A stretch of DNA of 64,000 nucleotides from a virus (IMGVR_UViG_3300031555_003590:1-64000), one strand, 5' to 3'. Numbered from the stretch's first letter, positions 4,610-47,410 are shown. Notes: generated by a model not told the origin, from the letters alone. Program-made: numbers and translations.

Positions 4610-6220
4610 TTACTCATACTGAATATATATTTGTCCAGTAGGAAGTTCAGAAGTTCCAGAAGTTAGAGCAGTTGTTCCCGCTGTGATGTTGCGCACCTGA
4701 GCGAGGGTGAGGGATTGATAGCCGCCCGTGATGATCCCCCTCGTGCGGGTCGTCGCGTAGACATTCAGATCCGTCTCATATGTGTTGTATGTGTCTGTGG
4801 TCTCGTCGGCGGCTTCGGGGCTGATGAGCGTCCAGCCCTGATTGCCGAGCGCCTGTATGTTGATCGTCATGTCAACGTCAACCTCTCCCGGCACGAACAC
4901 TTCAAGATAAGCTTTTGCGCCGGAGTAGCTTTTGGGTATCGAAAGCCTGATTTTGGAGACAGGTCGCTTGCTGCCGCTGAAATATGACACATGAAGTGCT
5001 TCCGCGCCCGGATAAGACGAGTATGTCGCCCCTGCAATCACAAAAAGGCTGACATGCGCCGATGATCCTGAGACCTCTATGCTGAAAGCCCCCATATTCC
5101 GCGTCACGCTTGAGCGGGATGAGGCTATTCTATACCAGCCTTCCGCAATAGGGAGAACCCCATTAAGTTCTGAGCCATGAGCAGCTTGGATATTAGTTCT
5201 AACAATTGCATCATCAACATTAGATAATGTATTATCTGCTGCTCCTACTTCATTAGCAGTATAAGTAGGTTTAGTAGATGCTTTAGCCCATTCAGGTACA
5301 GTAGGATCTGTTTCAGTATAACTAGTAAGATATCCACTATCATTTGTTAATTCACTAGTTTTAGTAGGAACAACAATAGCATCTATTAAACTCTTTAATA
5401 CAACACCTTGAGCAGCAGATAAAGGTTTAGTAGACACATTAGTAGTTAAATTATCAATAATATCAGATACATTGACTTTATTAGTAGTAATTGCATCAAT
5501 TAATGATTTATTAGATTTAATATATGCTACAATTTCACTTAATTGATCTAATGTAGTATCATCACTATCTGCTAATGTATTAAGTTTTGTAGTTAATTCA
5601 GTTATTAATAAACGAACATCATTATGTGAAGTATTATCAGTATTATGAGATGAAATTTCTTCATCAGTATATTTATTAGCAGTAGATAAAGCATTATCAG
5701 CACTACCAATAGGATCAGCACCTACTTGTTCTGCAGTAACACTATGAGGATTATTTTTATCACTAGTATGATTATCTAAATTAGTCTGAACAACTGAAGC
5801 TGCTCCAGCAGTTTCTACATTACTTAATTCATCAGGTAGTTGTTCTAGTGGAACTTTACCACTATCATCTAGTGTTGCTACACCACCTGGTACTCCTTTA
5901 GCATCTTCATAAATAGGTTCTGGTAATAATTCTACATCCTCGCTATCACTGCCGTCATCTGAATATACTAGATTATTTAATAATTGTCTAATATCTTCAT
6001 GTGCATTAGAATCAGTATTATGAGCTTCTATTTCTGAGCTTACATCAACATTAATATCATCTGGTAACATTTCAGATGGAATTTTATTATTTTCATCTGT
6101 ATAAACTATATTAACTTTTTTACCAGTATCATCTACTAGCGCACTAACTGTAGTACGTGGATAAATATCAGTAGTACCATCAGAACTAACTAAAGTTTCA
6201 ATAATAGCTTTAGTTGACAT
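4610..6220 (-). CDS. Tail fibre protein, paralog A, with an internal high-GC domain
   Basis: HNTDSNAHEDIR, NPHSVTAEQVGA, TKTSELTNDSGY and ETDPTVPEWAK fibre motifs; C-terminal GQIYIQYE. Confidence 0.8.
   Translation of the reverse strand: MSTKAIIETLVSSDGTTDIYPRTTVSALVDDTGKKVNIVYTDENNKIPSEMLPDDINVDVSSEIEAHNTDSNAHEDIRQLLNNLVYSDDGSDSEDVELLPEPIYEDAKGVPGGVATLDDSGKVPLEQLPDELSNVETAGAASVVQTNLDNHTSDKNNPHSVTAEQVGADPIGSADNALSTANKYTDEEISSHNTDNTSHNDVRLLITELTTKLNTLADSDDTTLDQLSEIVAYIKSNKSLIDAITTNKVNVSDIIDNLTTNVSTKPLSAAQGVVLKSLIDAIVVPTKTSELTNDSGYLTSYTETDPTVPEWAKASTKPTYTANEVGAADNTLSNVDDAIVRTNIQAAHGSELNGVLPIAEGWYRIASSRSSVTRNMGAFSIEVSGSSAHVSLFVIAGATYSSYPGAEALHVSYFSGSKRPVSKIRLSIPKSYSGAKAYLEVFVPGEVDVDMTINIQALGNQGWTLISPEAADETTDTYNTYETDLNVYATTRTRGIITGGYQSLTLAQVRNITAGTTALTSGTSELPTGQIYIQYE
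5841..5941. repeat. 101-bp direct repeat, copy 1 (copy 2 at 9741..9841, 1 mismatch)
   Basis: Both copies encode EDVELLPEPIYEDAKGVPGG(V/I)ATLDDSGKVPLEQ. Confidence 0.95.
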
Positions 6221-44633: not shown

Positions 44634-44700
44634 TATAAATACCTCCTATATTTTTAATTAAAAATAAAGGTGGCACAATTAGTGCCACCTTTTATGTATA

Positions 44701-44826
44701 TTAAATGGATTTTAATTTACGAAGTTGACGATTAAGTTTTCGAATAATATTTTGATTCTCAACTGGATTAATACTTAACTTTTTAATTCGATTTTCTAGA
44801 TATAAAATTCTTACATTATTACTCAT
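44701..44826 (-). CDS. 41-aa basic hypothetical protein
   Basis: AGGAGG RBS; MSNVRILYLENRIKKLSINPVENQNIIRKLNRQLRKLKSI. Confidence 0.65.
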   Translation of the reverse strand: MSNNVRILYLENRIKKLSINPVENQNIIRKLNRQLRKLKSI

Positions 44827-44894
44827 AATTATATCCTCCTATATAATATTTTATGACGGAGTTTTAGTAAATATGTAATATTATTTATAATATT

Positions 44895-44980
44895 GAGCCA
44901 TAGGGCTTTCACCTATGGGAGTAAAGGTTGGATTAGTGCTGCAGCCACTTACCAACAGTCTGGACTCTGCCGACTAAGCA
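44895..44980 (-). ncRNA. tRNA-like structured RNA (D-arm-like and T-arm-like hairpins, no acceptor stem)
   Basis: GCTTAGTCGGCAGAGT resembles the D-arm; GTTGG/CCAAC with AGTG/CACT; CCATAGG-TGAAAGC-CCTATGG. Confidence 0.4.
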
Positions 44981-45035
44981 TAGATAAATTTTACTTTACT
45001 TTTTCATATTATGTACTTTTAAGAGATTTTCTTTT

Positions 45036-45113
45036 TGGTCAAAGTTAATAGGAGTCGAACCTAATCCCTCCGCCGTATGTGGCAGCGTGCTATTTCCGCT
45101 ACACTAAACTTCT
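45036..45113 (-). pseudogene. Atypical or degenerate tRNA with 3' CCA and a 6-nt ACATAC anticodon loop
   Basis: GGTTCGACTCC T-arm, GTGT/GCAC D-stem, CTGCC/GGCGG stem, weak acceptor stem. Confidence 0.6.
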
Positions 45114-45218
45114 AATCTCTGCTACACTAGTCTCGATCGCTGTACATTCAATCATTGAAACTAGTTTGTACAATGTAGCATACATAAATATGGCTTTATA
45201 CTCACTACTCAATATTAT

Positions 45219-45294
45219 TGGTGTGCCTGGCGGGATTCGAACCCACGACCCTTTGATTAAAAGTCAAATGCTCTACCGACTGAGCTACAGGCAC
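45219..45294 (-). tRNA. trnK: tRNA-Lys(TTT)
   Basis: GTGCCTG...TTTGA-CTTTTAA-TCAAA...GGTTCGAATCC...CAGGCAC-ACCA. Confidence 0.97.
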
Positions 45295-45300
45295 ATGTTT

Positions 45301-45450
45301 AAAAGGATTCACCGTGGGCTACTCACACATAGTTCTGTCGGTTAGTGTTACCGACGTACTATTATATGTTTTCACCTTTAGTATATAGGCTCACTACTTC
45401 CTATATACCCAGGGGCACGGCTACTCTACTCCCTGTAAATTAAACATATA
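45301..45450 (-). ncRNA. Unidentified ~150-nt structured RNA with possible pseudoknots
   Basis: TATATGTTT/AAACATATA, CAGGG/CCCTG, GTATATAGG/CCTATATAC and GTCGGT/ACCGAC stems; loop CCGTG pairs with 3' CACGG. Confidence 0.6.
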
Positions 45451-45514
45451 TTGTATAATTATCTTTGGCACACAACACACATCAAAGATGTTATATAATA
45501 TATGTAATTTATAA

Positions 45515-45590
45515 TGGCTGGGCTAGATGGATTCGAACCATCGGAATGCAGGAGTCAAAGTCCTGTGCCTTACCACTTGGCTATAGCCCA
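45515..45590 (-). tRNA. trnQ: tRNA-Gln(TTG)
   Basis: TGGGCTA...CAGGA-CTTTGAC-TCCTG...GGTTCGAATCC...TAGCCCA-GCCA. Confidence 0.97.
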
Positions 45591-45670
45591 ATATATAAAA
45601 AGGTTTAATCTATATCTCCCACCTTCAAGGATGCACTTTTAGTAGCATTACTTCGGGAATAATTTCCCTA

Positions 45671-45746
45671 TGGCTCCCCCAGTTGGACTCGAACCAACGA
45701 CACTGCGGTTAACAGCCGCATGCTCTACCGACTGAGCTATGGAGGA
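45671..45746 (-). tRNA. trnN: tRNA-Asn(GTT)
   Basis: TCCTCCA...TGCGG-CTGTTAA-CCGCA...GGTTCGAGTCC...TGGGGGA-GCCA. Confidence 0.97.
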
Positions 45747-45751
45747 ATATA

Positions 45752-46118
45752 AAGTACAGACAGATCAACATTTTACACACTAACCTAGTCCTAAGACTGC
45801 TAGTACCTCTCCAAACAATTATTGCTTTCCACGCCTCAAATGTTGATGTGACTCTGCCTGATATTTACTCTGAGCAGTCACTACCCAGTTGTCAACCCCC
45901 ACTTAATCCTGCCTATTCTAGGTATCGATGTGATTGACTGCTTATGCCTTTAAGCATCGGATATCCTACTTCACCCATTTCAGATAATCCGCATAGCCTC
46001 CTACTTGGCTCTTATAGGCTTGATTTGCATTTTTTGAATAGAGTGCTACTCCCACACGTTCCCATCTCTATTACTGTAGTCAGTAATCCAGCCAGGATAT
46101 ATCATTTCACCTGGACTT
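45752..46118 (-). ncRNA. Unidentified ~370-nt highly structured RNA
   Basis: GC-enriched, no ORF in the track, about 10 complementary stems including crossing pairs (see findings). Confidence 0.65.
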
Positions 46119-46120
46119 AA

Positions 46121-46461
46121 TGGTGCGGGTAGCCGGACTCGAACCGGCATGGATTACTCCGAGAGATTTTCATCACACTCTTGGTTATGAATTCCCAAGC
46201 CAATTCAAAGAATTGTTGTGCGCTGGAATACGTTTTTACCATATCATTCCTGACTTAGGTAGTAGGTCTATATTCTCTACACATTTATCAAATTATTTCT
46301 AATTTGAATTTAGCACGGCGTTCCCATTGAGCCATTCACCGTTTTAGCCTACTCCACTTATAAAGTTTCCTTCATAAGGCTCCACCTTTACTCAAGGCAA
46401 CTTACTATAGCAAGTTCTCAATGGAGAAGTCTCTTGTGTCTGCCAATTTCACCATACCCGC
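46121..46461 (-). tRNA. trnL: tRNA-Leu(TAA), intron-split; exons 46461..46427 and 46170..46121 (85 nt mature)
   Basis: GCGGGTATGGTGAAATTGGCAGACACAAGAGACTT^AAAATCTCTCGGAGTAATCCATGCCGGTTCGAGTCCGGCTACCCGCACCA. Confidence 0.93.
46171..46426 (-). mobile_element. Group I intron (256 nt, trnL/IC3-like) in the Leu anticodon, U^AA
   Basis: P1 CTT/GAG with U.G; P2 CTTATGAAG-GAAA-CTTTATAAG; P3 AGTAGG/CCTACT; P7 GAATA/TATTC; terminal G at 46171. Confidence 0.88.
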
Positions 46462-46471
46462 ATATTATATA

Positions 46472-46975
46472 TCAAATATATTTAAAATAAGTTTTCTCAA
46501 TTTTTTGTGCAGGAATTTTATCTATTTTATTATTTTGAATAGATGCACCATATTTACCTGCACATTCTTTACTACAGAAATGAGGTTTATTTCTATTTCG
46601 TTTATCAGTTTGAGCTTTAGTTGGAGTAAACATCTTACCACATATCGGACATTTAATATCTTTAACTTCAACTCTAATTGCATCATTTTTGGTATGTTCT
46701 TTACGAGGTTGGATATCTAAATTATGAGGCAAATTATTAACTACATTCCAATCTTTATGATGAATGGTATCAGTATCTTTTATAAGTTTATTTATTTCAA
46801 TCTCTTTTAACGCTTTTGGGTAAGAAATTGTTTTTGTCTTACCTTTTATATTTTTTGATTTAGATGAGTCATTTAAAACTATATGTAATCTACCATCATC
46901 TCTTAGATATGGACCGTAAACTTTATCATATTCTGAATATAATTTCAGAATAGGACTTAAATCTTTATTATCCAT
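46472..46975 (-). CDS. Free-standing HNH endonuclease with C-terminal Zn finger
   Basis: IHHKDWNVVNNLPHNL......EH; CPICG...FCSKEC. Confidence 0.85.
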   Translation of the reverse strand: MDNKDLSPILKLYSEYDKVYGPYLRDDGRLHIVLNDSSKSKNIKGKTKTISYPKALKEIEINKLIKDTDTIHHKDWNVVNNLPHNLDIQPRKEHTKNDAIRVEVKDIKCPICGKMFTPTKAQTDKRNRNKPHFCSKECAGKYGASIQNNKIDKIPAQKIEKTYFKYI

Positions 46976-47010
46976 ATTATTAAAACCTCCAATATATTAA
47001 GATGAAATAG

Positions 47011-47038
47011 CTGTGTCTGCCAATTCCACCACACCGGC
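47011..47038 (-). pseudogene. Orphan 5' half of a tRNA-Leu
   Basis: GCCGGTGTGGTGGAATTGGCAGACACAG versus the intact exon GCGGGTATGGTGAAATTGGCAGACACAA (24/28 identical). Confidence 0.8.
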
Positions 47039-47162
47039 AGATAAATGGCACTAACGTAGTTCCCACGGCTCTTTTTTCACCCTTCTTTATATAAAGTTAG
47101 GATGCCTCTCGCACTAGCTGTGCTAAGGTTTTAAGAATACTATATAGTATTCTTATTGCAAT

Positions 47163-47239
47163 TGGTGGGCCTTCAGGGGCTCGAACCCTGGACCTGCAGA
47201 TTATGAGTCTGATGCTCTAACCGGCTGAGCTAAAGGCCC
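47163..47239 (-). tRNA. trnI2: tRNA(CAT), most likely Ile2 (lysidine type)
   Basis: GGGCCTTTAGCTCAG...CTCATAA...AAGGCCC-ACCA; the acceptor resembles Firmicutes Ile2 and lacks the fMet C1:A72 mismatch. Confidence 0.9.
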
Positions 47240-47290
47240 AAATATATTGTTTTAATAAATTTAGATATATTGTAATTTAAATTCAAAGAA

Positions 47291-47308
47291 ATAATATATA
47301 ATTGAAAA
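47291..47308 (-). promoter_or_regulatory. Early-type promoter of the tRNA operon
   Basis: TTTTCAATTATATATTAT about 50 nt upstream of the first tRNA, after a terminator at ~47370-47402. Confidence 0.65.
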
Positions 47309-47410
47309 ATGAGGTTTATTTTTTAACCGTAAATATTTGTATATCTTTATTCACTTTTTATTTTAAAAATAGGATGGGGCAATTTTATATACCCCATCCT
47401 ATGATTATGA

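What the first reader, a model, noticed from the sequence alone, without database searches (positions are those of the whole stretch)
44890..47310. tRNA operon used as a scaffold for a series of unidentified structured RNAs
Seen, in transcript order from the promoter at 47291: Ile2, structured element, orphan Leu half, HNH, intron-Leu, 370-nt RNA, Asn, hairpin element, Gln, 150-nt RNA, Lys, 60-nt pseudoknot, atypical tRNA, tRNA-like RNA. Nearly every spacer is GC-enriched and self-complementary, unlike the AT-only spacers elsewhere in the window. Inference: tRNA processing (RNase P/Z) releases a set of phage ncRNAs and tRNA mimics, possibly countering anticodon-nuclease defences (PrrC/PARIS-type), whose known targets include tRNA-Lys.
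Basis: partly seen in the sequence, partly recalled or inferred. Interest (0 to 1): 0.8.

Follow-up and report, generated by a model that had tools for sequence, protein, structure and literature searches.

The report
Passenger RNAs in phage tRNA island
The only tRNA gene cluster of this 292-kb gut phage holds ordinary tRNAs, a mobile intron with its endonuclease gene, and at least one conserved folded RNA of unknown function that matches no Rfam family and recurs just upstream of a tRNA in four other, distantly related phages.

Summary
Window 47239-44890 (minus strand) is the only tRNA island of a 292-kb, 28% GC phage from animal faeces.

- **Ordinary parts.** It holds four canonical tRNAs (CAU, Asn, Gln, Lys). 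It also holds a tRNA-Leu(UAA) split by a 256-nt group I intron, an HNH gene and a 28-nt orphan Leu 5' fragment.
- **Spacers.** Six of ten spacer segments have 37-48% GC, against 24% for other intergenic DNA.
- **Intron and HNH.** These belong to a recurrent phage family in which the HNH gene usually lies inside this same intron.
- **The "150-nt RNA" (45440-45300).** This is the real discovery. It matches no Rfam 15 family and is conserved with compensatory base changes. It occurs once each in five mostly distantly related phages, always inside a tRNA array and ending 5-12 nt before a tRNA or tRNA-like 5' end.
- **Lys-to-end block (45218-44890).** It comprises a pseudoknot spacer, a weak tRNA-like, a linker and a terminal-hairpin RNA, and it has a syntenic homologue in one other phage.
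- **Unsupported elements.** The 374-nt element, spacer S1 and the Asn-Gln spacer have no homologue. The 374-nt element also folds no better than shuffled sequence.
- **Defence reading.** Nothing tested bears on anticodon-nuclease defence. The canonical tRNAs read the phage's commonest codons.

The general theme, structured RNAs inside phage tRNA arrays, was noted earlier in this scan on other DNA and is known from T4, ROOL and GOLLD.

The parts
47163..47239 (-). tRNA with anticodon CAU. G1-C72 is paired, so it is not an initiator. Elongator Met versus Ile2 was not resolved.
   Evidence: ARAGORN; Rfam 70 bits.
47040..47162 (-). Spacer S1: a perfect 10-bp hairpin plus two further hairpins, 37% GC.
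   Evidence: MFE z -3.2 and -3.0. No Rfam hit and no homologue.
47012..47039 (-). Orphan 5' fragment of a tRNA-Leu (acceptor and D arm only). It loses similarity before the anticodon stem. Read as a relic of recombination or homing.
   Evidence: 89% identity over 28 nt to 46462-46435. It resembles the Leu 5' exons of other phage loci. A faeces contig joins a sequence like it directly to an intron like ours (joint 46376->47010).
46472..46975 (-). HNH_3-family endonuclease gene (167 aa) with its own GGAGG ribosome-binding site.
   Evidence: 65 homologues, some carrying PF13392. Most relatives examined lie beside or inside a tRNA-Leu gene, usually Leu(UAA).
46121..46461 (-). tRNA-Leu(UAA). Exon 1 is 46461-46427, the group I intron 46426-46171 lies between U34 and A35, and exon 2 is 46170-46121 with encoded CCA.
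   Evidence: ARAGORN -i finds a 256-nt intron. The 5' exon ends in U and the intron ends in G. MFE z -3.1. Rfam Intron_gpI scores 15.3 bits, E 0.1, with P3-P7 aligned. nhmmer finds the intron cores of other phage loci, mostly in tRNA-Leu(UAA), down to E 1.7e-14.
45747..46120 (-). 374-nt ORF-free element, 41% GC and purine-rich (A32 G27 U26 C14). Its nature is unresolved.
   Evidence: GC z +3.2 against intergenic DNA. MFE z -0.7 and -0.5. No Rfam hit. No homologue found. Relatives in faeces runs share only its first ~60 nt.
45671..45746 (-). tRNA-Asn(GUU).
45591..45670 (-). Asn-Gln spacer with small hairpins, 32% GC.
   Evidence: MFE z -0.8. No homologue.
45515..45590 (-). tRNA-Gln(UUG).
45441..45514 (-). 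AT-rich stretch (21% GC) with the hairpin AUCUUUG...CAAAGAU. It sits where the other four family members have a GC-rich 5' domain.
   Evidence: Alignment A3; MFE z -1.1.
45300..45440 (-). Core of a conserved structured RNA family that matches no Rfam family.
- SL1: 45435-45431 pairs with 45414-45410; its loop AGUAGAGUAGCCGUGC is invariant.
- SL2: 45409-45400 pairs with 45389-45380; the loop holds GUAGUG.
- SL3: 45367-45358 pairs with 45333-45325, and 45355-45350 with 45342-45337; the loop holds CACU.
- The invariant GCCGUG (45421-45416) is complementary to the invariant CACGGU (45316-45311).
- The RNA ends 5 nt before tRNA-Lys.
   Evidence: Model R1 scores 150.6 bits here. Four other distinct phage members score 95-145 bits. 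MFE z -2.7.
45219..45294 (-). tRNA-Lys(UUU).
   Evidence: 78.7 bits.
45113..45218 (-). Lys-3' spacer (the 'pseudoknot' element). Its conserved 5' part is GUAGUGAGUAUAAAGCCAUAUU. Candidate helices are GCUAC/GUAGC and GUACA/UGUAC, plus a crossing helix CUAGUUUC/GAGACUAG.
   Evidence: Homologous to L081:2404-2506 (nhmmer E 1.7e-8; alignments). In L081 the crossing helix reads CUUUGG/CCAAAG, by my reading. MFE z is only -1.1 to -1.3.
45036..45112 (-). Weak tRNA-like. The acceptor has 6 of 7 pairs, the T arm is good, ACCA follows, and the anticodon loop is abnormal (6 nt, or 7 nt with C33).
   Evidence: Rfam tRNA 19.5 bits, below 29. ARAGORN finds it only at -ps80. An 85% relative exists in faeces contigs. 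L081 holds a different tRNA-like between the same conserved flanks.
44990..45035 (-). A-rich linker, 17% GC, yet 88% identical to L081:2576-2627.
   Evidence: blastn E 3e-12; alignment A6.
44890..44989 (-). Last element, 45% GC. It has the conserved helix GUUGG/CCAAC and a terminal hairpin at 44918-44898 (CCAUAGG-UGAAAGC-CCUAUGG).
   Evidence: Homologous to L081:2625-2745 (nhmmer E 4.2e-11). Two of the seven hairpin pairs change on both sides and all seven are kept. No tRNA signal. MFE z -0.5 to -0.7.
44666..44692 (-). Intrinsic terminator after the 41-aa ORF (44826-44701). It is the likely end of the transcription unit.
   Evidence: 11-bp stem followed by a T run.

Best explanation
The stretch is a mosaic, horizontally assembled tRNA island. 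It is probably transcribed as one unit, from downstream of the hairpin that ends the upstream gene (about 47399-47365) to the terminator at 44692-44666. It has three layers.

1. **Ordinary tRNAs.** tRNA-CAU, Leu-UAA, Asn, Gln and Lys top up decoding of the A/U-rich codons this 28% GC phage uses most.
2. **A selfish layer.** A group I intron sits at the classic U34/A35 site of tRNA-Leu(UAA). The HNH endonuclease gene that usually lives inside this intron in other phages here lies just upstream, next to a 28-nt duplicate of the 5' exon left by recombination.
3. **Passenger RNAs.** These are compact folded RNAs carried between tRNAs.

The clearest passenger is the ~140-nt RNA at 45440-45300. Its fold has a 5-bp stem with an invariant 16-nt loop and two variable-sequence hairpins with invariant GUAGUG and CACU loops. 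An invariant GCCGUG/CACGGU pairing makes either a pseudoknot or the closing helix of a three-way junction.

In all five phages this RNA stops 5-12 nt before a tRNA or tRNA-like. I therefore infer that RNase P cleavage of the downstream tRNA makes its 3' end, and that 3' processing of the upstream tRNA frees its 5' side. The product would be a stable small RNA that acts in trans on an unknown partner.

The block 45218-44890 is a second conserved passenger module. Its degenerate tRNA-like keeps an acceptor stem, a T arm and ACCA but has no normal anticodon loop. It most likely serves as a processing handle rather than a decoder.

**Shown:** the anatomy, the conservation, the covariation and the adjacency to tRNAs.

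**Inferred:** co-transcription, release by RNase P, stability and trans action.
For: **Anatomy:**

**Codon supply:** AAU is the commonest codon, AAA the fourth and UUA the eighth, and CAA is 81% of Gln codons.

**Intron and HNH family**
- 65 HNH homologues were found.
- In L036, L039, L044-46 and L049-51 the ORF lies inside a 620-720-nt intron of tRNA-Leu(UAA).
- Our intron core matches theirs at E down to 1.7e-14 and matches Rfam Intron_gpI weakly.

**140-nt family**
- Pattern scans of IMG/VR found L073/L076, L081/L086, L082 and L083.
- Each copy lies in a tRNA array directly upstream of a tRNA: Trp, Ser-UGA, Ser-GCU, a tRNA-like, and Lys in ours.
- Model R1 scores 95-151 bits, finds one copy per genome, and finds none in 42 other phage records with tRNA arrays.
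- 79.6% of cells are paired, against 62.5 +/- 2.7 in shuffles (0 of 500 reach it).
- 20 of 30 pairs change on both sides, against 9.2 +/- 2.0 in shuffles. With the partners slid by 1-3 columns, only 37-48% of cells pair.
- Sixteen G-U cells fit the tRNA strand only.
- The carriers are distant. Topoisomerase II is 26% identical in G003, 30-33% in G046 and absent in G048. The close relative G001 (73%) has no tRNA and no copy.

**Second module:**

**GAGUAG motif:** it occurs 6 times on the RNA strand against 0.66 expected, and never on the other strand.
Against: - There are no expression data: no RNA sequencing run holds the phage.
- Only five family members are known, and alignment A5 was fitted to the model's structure, which flatters the pair counts.
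- The GCCGUG/CACGGU pairing is invariant, so covariation cannot prove it.
- Our copy lacks the GC-rich 5' domain of the other four and could be a decaying copy.
- The second module rests on one other sequence. Its crossing helix was read by eye, and its fold is no more stable than shuffles.
- The 374-nt element, S1 and the Asn-Gln spacer have no comparative support and may be relics.
- No partner protein was found. No TROVE/Ro60 gene is present, and no neighbouring gene is shared.
Confidence: 0.6

Rival explanations
1. The 140-nt family is a cis-acting leader of the tRNA that follows it. It would help or gate processing, folding or transcription of that tRNA or of the downstream part of the array, and it would not act as a trans-acting RNA.
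For: It always lies directly 5' of a tRNA or tRNA-like, 5-12 nt away, in five phages. The conserved CACGGUGAAU tail lies next to the cleavage site.
Against: - The downstream tRNA differs in every phage: Lys, Trp, Ser-UGA, Ser-GCU and a non-decoding tRNA-like.
- The other 4-21 tRNAs of the same arrays do without it.
- There is one copy per genome.
Confidence: 0.2
2. The unmatched spacers (the 374-nt element, S1 and Asn-Gln) are non-functional relics. They would be decayed tRNAs, intron pieces or foreign DNA left by repeated homing and recombination, and they would be GC-rich only because they arrived recently from GC-richer sources.
For: - One relic is certain: the 28-nt Leu 5' fragment.
- The island is missing in the closest relative.
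- The carriers of related modules have 38-48% GC.
- The 374-nt element folds no better than shuffles.
- No homologue was found.
Against: - Within the island, 41% GC blocks sit next to 17-21% GC linkers. This suggests module-wise constraint.
- The transcribed strand is purine-rich, and GAGUAG is strand-specific.
- S1 has z -3.2.
- No tRNA or intron remnant is detectable inside these spacers, even at E up to 10.
Confidence: 0.45
3. The passenger RNAs and degenerate tRNA-likes would be decoys or inhibitors of host tRNA-targeting defences (PrrC, PARIS or VapC-type anticodon nucleases), and the Lys, Gln and Asn tRNAs would be replacement copies.
For: From my own knowledge, Lys, Gln and Asn tRNAs are known targets of anticodon nucleases. 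Two tRNA-likes with intact tops and abnormal anticodon loops sit in these arrays. This is circumstantial only.
Against: Codon usage alone explains the tRNA set. No defence or anti-defence gene is linked. Nothing in the RNA family resembles an anticodon stem-loop.
Confidence: 0.1
4. The 140-nt family is a small self-cleaving ribozyme that trims tRNA precursors. It would be a counterpart of theta ribozymes acting on the 5' side.
For: It has invariant junction and loop nucleotides, a possible pseudoknot and a position abutting a tRNA. Theta ribozymes show that gut phages use ribozymes at tRNA ends (PMC10879173).
Against: - It matches no ribozyme family in Rfam.
- The distance to tRNA +1 varies from 5 to 12 nt, so it cannot set the mature end.
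- No HDV-like arrangement follows any tRNA 3' end here (my reading).
Confidence: 0.07

Closest known systems
T4 species 1 and 2 RNAs (rnaC, rnaD) in the T4 tRNA cluster (own knowledge)
   Same: They are small stable RNAs of unknown function, co-transcribed with phage tRNAs and cut out by the tRNA-processing machinery.
   Different: No similarity in sequence or structure was tested or is expected. The family here comes from uncultivated gut phages, and its expression has not been shown.
ROOL (RF03087) and GOLLD RNAs
   Same: They are structured RNAs of unknown function that sit next to tRNAs in phages and prophages (PMC5737381). A ROOL copy lies in the L082 array, which also holds a member of the new family.
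   Different: They are 580-800 nt long and form multimeric cages (10.1101/2024.12.08.627333). The new family is ~140 nt (~200 nt with the 5' domain) and matches neither model.
Theta (minimal HDV-like) ribozymes of gut phages (PMC10879173)
   Same: They are small structured RNAs that directly abut tRNA genes in gut Caudoviricetes and are linked to tRNA end maturation.
   Different: Theta ribozymes follow the tRNA 3' end and cleave at their own 5' end. This RNA precedes the tRNA 5' end and shows no HDV-like fold and no Rfam hit.
mascRNA/MALAT1-type 3'-end formation (own knowledge), and the scan's earlier 'mini-tRNA elbow' note e1-3634301
   Same: A tRNA-like structure serves as an RNase P handle that defines the 3' end of the upstream RNA. 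This fits the degenerate tRNA-likes after the passenger RNAs here and in G003.
   Different: That system is eukaryotic. Here the handle is usually a normal decoding tRNA.
Cyanobacterial and plastid tRNA-Leu(UAA) group I intron; phage HNH-bearing group I introns; free-standing endonucleases in tRNA regions (T4 SegB, T5 F-Tfl) (own knowledge)
   Same: The insertion site is the same, between U34 and A35. The 5' exon ends in U and the intron in G. An HNH endonuclease is associated with it.
   Different: Our intron has no ORF. The HNH gene sits upstream, beside a duplicated exon fragment. Rfam scores the intron only 15.3 bits.
YrlA / Y RNAs with Ro60 (RF02553)
   Same: They are tRNA-like-containing small RNAs found in some phage tRNA clusters. 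A sub-threshold YrlA-like hit lies in L081.
   Different: None of the five phages has a TROVE/Ro60 gene, and nothing in the window matches YrlA.

Membership tests
Group I intron (element 46426-46171) | The 5' exon ends in U, which can pair with G of an internal guide. The intron ends in G. | tested here: met
   ...GACUU|CUCCAUUGAG... and ...GUGAUG|AAAAUCUCU, read. The splice restores the anticodon loop CUUAAAA (anticodon UAA).
Group I intron (element 46426-46171) | A conserved catalytic core (P3-P8) recognised by the Rfam model at its gathering score. | tested here: inconclusive
   RF00028 scores 15.3 bits against a gathering score of 50, E 0.1 in a 268-nt search. P3, P4-P6 and the P7 strand are aligned. 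The full-window search found no hit.
Group I intron (element 46426-46171) | Homology to introns at the same tRNA site in other genomes. | tested here: met
   nhmmer E 1.7e-14 to 1e-3 against introns at the same anticodon-loop site, mostly in tRNA-Leu(UAA), in L056, L041, L042, L062, L066, L054, L050 and L051.
Group I intron (element 46426-46171) | Self-splicing with guanosine. | not testable with these tools
   This needs an in vitro assay.
tRNA (element 45112-45040) | A cloverleaf scoring at or above the Rfam gathering score of 29 bits, with a 7-nt anticodon loop and U33. | tested here: not met
   It scores 19.5 bits. The loop has 6 nt in the Rfam alignment, or 7 nt with C33 in ARAGORN's fold.
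tRNA (element 44989-44890) | Any tRNA-like signal. | tested here: not met
   No RF00005 match at E up to 10. ARAGORN finds none there on the RNA strand, even at -ps70.
Known Rfam families (GOLLD, ROOL, HDV-like, Y RNA, tmRNA, RNase P and others) for all spacers | A match to the covariance model. | tested here: not met
   Only tRNAs reach the gathering score. Searches at E up to 10 on each spacer give only chance hits.
Theta ribozyme | A minimal HDV-like fold whose cleavage-site G1 lies within about 1-5 nt of a tRNA 3' end. | tested here: not met
   By my reading, the sequence after each CCA has no P1/P3 arrangement of sufficient length. No HDV-family hit was found. No descriptor search was run.
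New ~140-nt tRNA-array RNA family (model R1) | The invariant blocks GGAGUAGAGUAGCCGUGCCC, GUAGUG, CACU and CACGGUGAAU lie in order, and three covarying helices are present. | tested here: met
   Window 45440-45300 scores 150.6 bits. The invariant columns are listed.
New ~140-nt tRNA-array RNA family (model R1) | It lies in a tRNA array and ends 5-12 nt before a tRNA or tRNA-like 5' end. | tested here: met
   In our phage it lies between tRNA-Gln and tRNA-Lys. The relatives are described.
New ~140-nt tRNA-array RNA family (model R1) | A GC-rich 5' domain with helices of type GAUCC/GGAUC and GAUCG-UGAGA..CUA.U-CGAUC. | tested here: not met
   It is present in L073, L081, L082 and L083. Our copy has an AT-rich hairpin in its place.
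Passenger stable RNA of a phage tRNA operon (T4 rnaC/rnaD kind) | It accumulates as a discrete stable RNA processed from the tRNA precursor. | not testable with these tools
   No RNA run holds the phage.

The most novel reading that the evidence does not exclude
The ~140-nt RNA would be the founding member of a new class of horizontally mobile phage RNAs, possibly together with the Lys-3' pseudoknot module. These RNAs would use neighbouring tRNAs as processing handles. They would act in trans on the host translation or RNA-surveillance machinery, for example as a decoy or inhibitor of a tRNA-directed defence nuclease or of a host RNase, or as a small catalytic RNA.
Probability: 0.15. Interest if true: 0.85.

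Novelty: new variant of a known kind. Interest (0 to 1): 0.6.

Why it matters
Phage tRNA arrays are usually annotated as tRNAs plus empty spacers. Here at least one spacer is a conserved, covarying RNA. It is shared by distantly related large gut phages and is absent from a close relative, so it behaves like a mobile functional module.

It joins ROOL, GOLLD, theta ribozymes and the T4 species 1 and 2 RNAs as evidence that tRNA operons serve phages as a general expression and processing platform for non-coding RNAs. The RNA is small and well defined: about 140 nt, with four invariant blocks. That makes it easy to probe, to cleave with RNase P in vitro and to search for more widely. Finding its partner could reveal a new way in which phages manipulate host RNA biology.

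Separating the real family from the unsupported elements (the 374-nt stretch and the 'tRNA-like' tail) also prevents over-annotation.

Tried and rejected
**Rfam and close relatives**
- Rfam at gathering score, and at E up to 10 on each spacer, gave nothing but tRNAs and a weak intron hit.
- blastn of the region and of single spacers against GenBank phages gave only tRNA or chance hits.
- The flanking 411-aa protein has no homologue except itself. Its contigs are the same phage with almost no variation.
- The tubulin neighbour led to G001/G002, which lack all tRNAs and all spacers. Synteny breaks there.

**Sequencing runs**
- No RNA holder is listed.
- Laying four faeces DNA runs showed 80-90% relatives only for the intron, the weak tRNA-like and the first ~60 nt of the 374-nt element.

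**Pattern scans**
- Two metagenome scans for the weak tRNA-like found nothing, as did one viral scan.
- A 19-mer from the 374-nt element found nothing in IMG/VR.
- The genome-contig scan with the family pattern gave 24 loci, all GC-rich chance matches.
- L072, L074, L075, L077, L078, L084 and L085 are also chance matches.

**Other ideas tested**
- No spacer is repeated elsewhere in the phage's own genome.
- The spacers hold no hidden ORF.
- The sigma-70 promoter scan was no better than shuffles.
- The Y RNA/Ro60 idea fails because none of the five phages has a TROVE gene.
- No neighbouring protein is shared by the five carriers.
- Theta/HDV-like ribozymes after tRNA 3' ends were rejected by reading only.
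- The 41-aa ORF resembles an ORF at the end of the L083 array by eye, but tblastn finds nothing significant.

Full report
**Setting.** The window is the first 64 kb of a 292,119-bp IMG/VR phage record with 28.3% GC. The same phage occurs almost unchanged in about a dozen contigs from animal-faeces metagenomes. Its only tRNA genes lie on the minus strand between 47239 and 45219. A hairpin with a U run closes the upstream 411-aa gene at about 47399-47365 (read). A canonical terminator lies at 44692-44666, after a 41-aa ORF. The island therefore looks like one transcription unit. This is an inference. The sigma-70 scan was uninformative, and the promoter at 47291 was not tested.

**Checking the list.**
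- Four canonical tRNAs (CAU, Asn-GUU, Gln-UUG, Lys-UUU) are confirmed at 66-79 bits.
- With introns allowed, ARAGORN finds a fifth tRNA with a 256-nt intron. The sequence reads ...GACUU|intron...GAUG|AAAAUCUCU. Splicing restores the loop CUUAAAA of a long-variable-arm tRNA-Leu(UAA), with the intron between U34 and A35.
- A 28-nt copy of the Leu acceptor and D arm lies at 47039-47012, 89% identical to the real exon. It loses similarity before the anticodon stem, so it is a fragment.
- The ORF between the fragment and the real tRNA (46975-46472) has 65 homologues, several carrying PF13392 HNH_3.
- GC content of the spacers is 37-48% for S1, the intron, the 374-nt element, the 150-nt RNA, the tRNA-like and the last element. 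The 136 other intergenic stretches average 23.9 +/- 5.4%. Two linkers inside the island are as AT-rich as the rest (17-21%).
- Folding energy beats dinucleotide shuffles only for S1 (z -3.2), the intron (-3.1) and the 150-nt RNA (-2.7). The 374-nt element scores -0.5 to -0.7.
- Rfam 15 recognises nothing but tRNAs at gathering score. At E up to 10 on single spacers it adds only a 15.3-bit Intron_gpI match and a 19.5-bit sub-threshold tRNA match at 45112-45040.

**The selfish layer.**
- Most relatives of the HNH protein that I examined lie beside or inside a tRNA-Leu gene, usually Leu(UAA).
- In L036, L039, L044-46, L049-51 and others, ARAGORN reads a tRNA-Leu(UAA) with a 620-720-nt intron, and the HNH ORF lies within that intron. 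It starts 15-70 nt after the 5' splice site and is followed by ~200 nt of ribozyme core. Other loci hold ORF-less introns of 190-240 nt.
- Our intron core is homologous to these (nhmmer E 1.7e-14 to 1e-3).
- The 'orphan half, HNH, intron-Leu' part of the finding is therefore a rearranged member of a recurrent phage element, a mobile group I intron of tRNA-Leu(UAA) with an HNH homing endonuclease. In our phage the ORF has ended up outside an ORF-less intron, beside a duplicated exon fragment.
- A faeces contig joins a Leu 5' exon like the orphan one directly to an intron like ours, with no HNH gene between them (joint 46376->47010). This fits recombination between alleles.

**The closest relative lacks the island.** G001 is a complete 289-kb phage with 73% topoisomerase II and 63% tubulin identity. 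It has no tRNA at all and no match to any spacer. Gene order diverges exactly here. The island is a lineage-specific acquisition.

**The 150-nt RNA is a real family.**
- An 18-mer from its first hairpin found L073/L076, which are records G004 and G003. G003 is a 231-kb phage that was present in the same sample. The match is 73% identical over 146 nt.
- A pattern linking GAGUAGCCGUG to CACGGUGAA found three further distinct phages: L081/L086, L082 and L083. All 24 hits of that pattern in bacterial genomes were GC-rich coding chance matches.
- In every phage the RNA lies inside a tRNA array and stops 5-12 nt before a tRNA 5' end:
  - Gln|RNA|Lys in our phage;
  - Ile|RNA|Trp in L081;
  - Tyr|RNA|Ser-UGA in L082;
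  - Thr|RNA|Ser-GCU in L083;
  - RNA followed by a 107-nt tRNA-like in G003.
- The invariant blocks are GGAGUAGAGUAGCCGUGCCC, GUAGUG, CACU and CACGGUGAAU.
- Covariance model R1, built on three helices, scores the five members at 95-151 bits. It finds one copy per genome and none in 42 other phage records that have tRNA arrays.
- On the model-fitted alignment, 79.6% of cells pair, against 62.5 +/- 2.7 in shuffles (0 of 500 reach it). Twenty of 30 pairs change on both sides, against 9.2 +/- 2.0. Sliding the partners by 1-3 columns drops pairing to 37-48%.
- SL1 is paired in all sequences and has three pairs that change on both sides. In my reading, L082 has lost one G and one C, so its stem is CAGG/CCUG. 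The inner SL3 helix is 86% paired, and five of its six pairs change on both sides.
- G-U pairs fit only the tRNA strand.
- GCCGUG in the SL1 loop and CACGGU ~95 nt downstream are complementary but invariant. RNAalifold uses them to close a three-way junction. Together with SL1 they would form a pseudoknot. Which holds is open.
- The other four members have a GC-rich 5' domain with covarying helices, which fills the whole ~200-nt inter-tRNA spacer. Our copy has an AT-rich hairpin there.
- The carriers are far apart. Topoisomerase II is 26% identical in G003, 30-33% in G046 and absent in G048. The RNA is therefore either exchanged horizontally or strongly conserved.

**A second conserved block.**
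- Window 45218-44890 aligns along its length with L081:2400-2745.
- The first ~50 nt after tRNA-Lys, the ~25 nt before the tRNA-like, the A-rich linker (88% identical despite 17% GC) and the last element are conserved.
- The tRNA-like between them is a different sequence in each phage. The top four acceptor pairs are kept through changes on one or both sides.
- The terminal hairpin changes two pairs on both sides and keeps all seven.
- The crossing helix CUAGUUUC/GAGACUAG is replaced by CUUUGG/CCAAAG at the same place. This is my reading, because the MAFFT alignment is out of register there.
- The evidence is suggestive but rests on two sequences, and the fold is not thermodynamically exceptional.
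- The weak tRNA-like has a good acceptor and T arm followed by ACCA, but an abnormal anticodon loop. G003 has a similar defective tRNA-like right after its copy of the 140-nt RNA.
- I read these as RNase P handles rather than decoders. This is an inference.

**What stays unexplained.**
- The 374-nt element, S1 and the Asn-Gln spacer have no homologue in GenBank phages, in about 90 held phage loci, in the IMG/VR 19-mer scan or in four faeces runs. The one exception is the first ~60 nt after tRNA-Leu.
- The 374-nt element is 41% GC, purine-rich and free of ORFs, but it folds no better than shuffles.
- It may be a large RNA with an irregular fold or a recently acquired relic. I put the relic reading slightly ahead.
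- GAGUAG occurs six times on the RNA strand of the non-ORF part of the island, against 0.66 expected, and never on the other strand. The copies lie in intron P3, the 374-nt element, the family core and tail, and just after tRNA-Lys. It may be a shared tertiary or protein-binding module.

**Function.**
- The canonical tRNAs read the phage's most used codons: AAU is the commonest, AAA the fourth and UUA the eighth, and CAA is 81% of Gln codons. Codon supply is a sufficient explanation for them.
- Nothing tested bears on anticodon nucleases.
- For the passenger RNAs I commit to maturation by the tRNA-processing machinery and action as stable trans-acting small RNAs, by analogy with the T4 species 1 and 2 RNAs. 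A cis role in precursor processing is the main rival.
- No Ro60/TROVE gene and no shared neighbouring gene points to a partner.

**Comparison with what is known.**
- Structured RNAs beside phage tRNAs are established: ROOL and GOLLD (PMC5737381), theta ribozymes at tRNA 3' ends (PMC10879173), and the T4 RNAs C and D (own knowledge).
- One of the arrays that carries the new family also carries a ROOL RNA at 387 bits, and another has a sub-threshold YrlA-like hit.
- This scan has noted passenger RNAs in phage tRNA operons before, on other DNA (e1-5341646, e1-161897, e1-3634301). None shares sequence with this family.
- The kind is therefore known. This family matches no Rfam family, and I did not find it described.

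**Verdict.** The result is one solid new RNA family, one probable second module, one known mobile intron and several unsupported elements.

Noticed in passing
L082:4042-4646: A ROOL RNA (RF03087, 387 bits) lies directly after tRNA-Thr, in the same phage tRNA array that holds a member of the new 140-nt family.
   Followed up: no
L081:1755-1874: A sub-threshold YrlA-like hit (39 bits). By eye it reads as a permuted tRNA, with the T arm and 3' acceptor strand before the 5' acceptor strand and D arm. None of the five phages has a Ro60/TROVE gene.
   Followed up: partly
L082:5616-5746 and L083:8626-8757: A further inter-tRNA spacer of about 105 nt is shared at 84% identity by two phages. It is probably another passenger RNA family.
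   Followed up: no
L036, L039, L044-L046, L049-L051 (around position 5000 of each; about 2100-2860 in L039): Relatives of the window's HNH protein lie inside 620-720-nt introns of tRNA-Leu(UAA). Other tRNAs in these arrays also carry long introns, for example Ser-GCU with 456 nt in L027 and Arg-UCU with 620 nt in L050.
   Followed up: partly
L007 (JGI contig), matching window 45296-45231: This contig is identical to the window over 5.7 kb, except for 12 substitutions and 4 indels that all lie inside tRNA-Lys. It is either an allele swap or a metagenome assembly chimera.
   Followed up: no
window 44701-44826 (-) and L083:9361-9495: A 41-aa ORF closes the island. By eye it resembles a 44-aa ORF at the end of the L083 tRNA array (NRI..L...QN..I.K..R.LR.LK). 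tblastn finds nothing significant.
   Followed up: partly
L073:8149-8255 (-): G003 has a 107-nt tRNA-like directly after its copy of the RNA. It has a perfect acceptor stem and T arm, a long variable arm and no recognisable anticodon loop. RF00005 does not detect it.
   Followed up: partly
L073:8420-8920 (-), L081:1935-2380 and L082:8047-8410: Other phage tRNA arrays also hold 350-490-nt GC-rich, ORF-free spacers with no Rfam match and no similarity to each other or to the window's 374-nt element.
   Followed up: partly
G000 genome 71590-71921, 106246-106584 and 110583-110925 (outside the window): These are further intergenic stretches with 36% GC in a 28% GC genome. They may be introns or RNA genes.
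   Followed up: no
window 45934: The only variant seen inside the 374-nt element among the sampled copies of the phage is A>G on the RNA strand, in contig L008.
   Followed up: no
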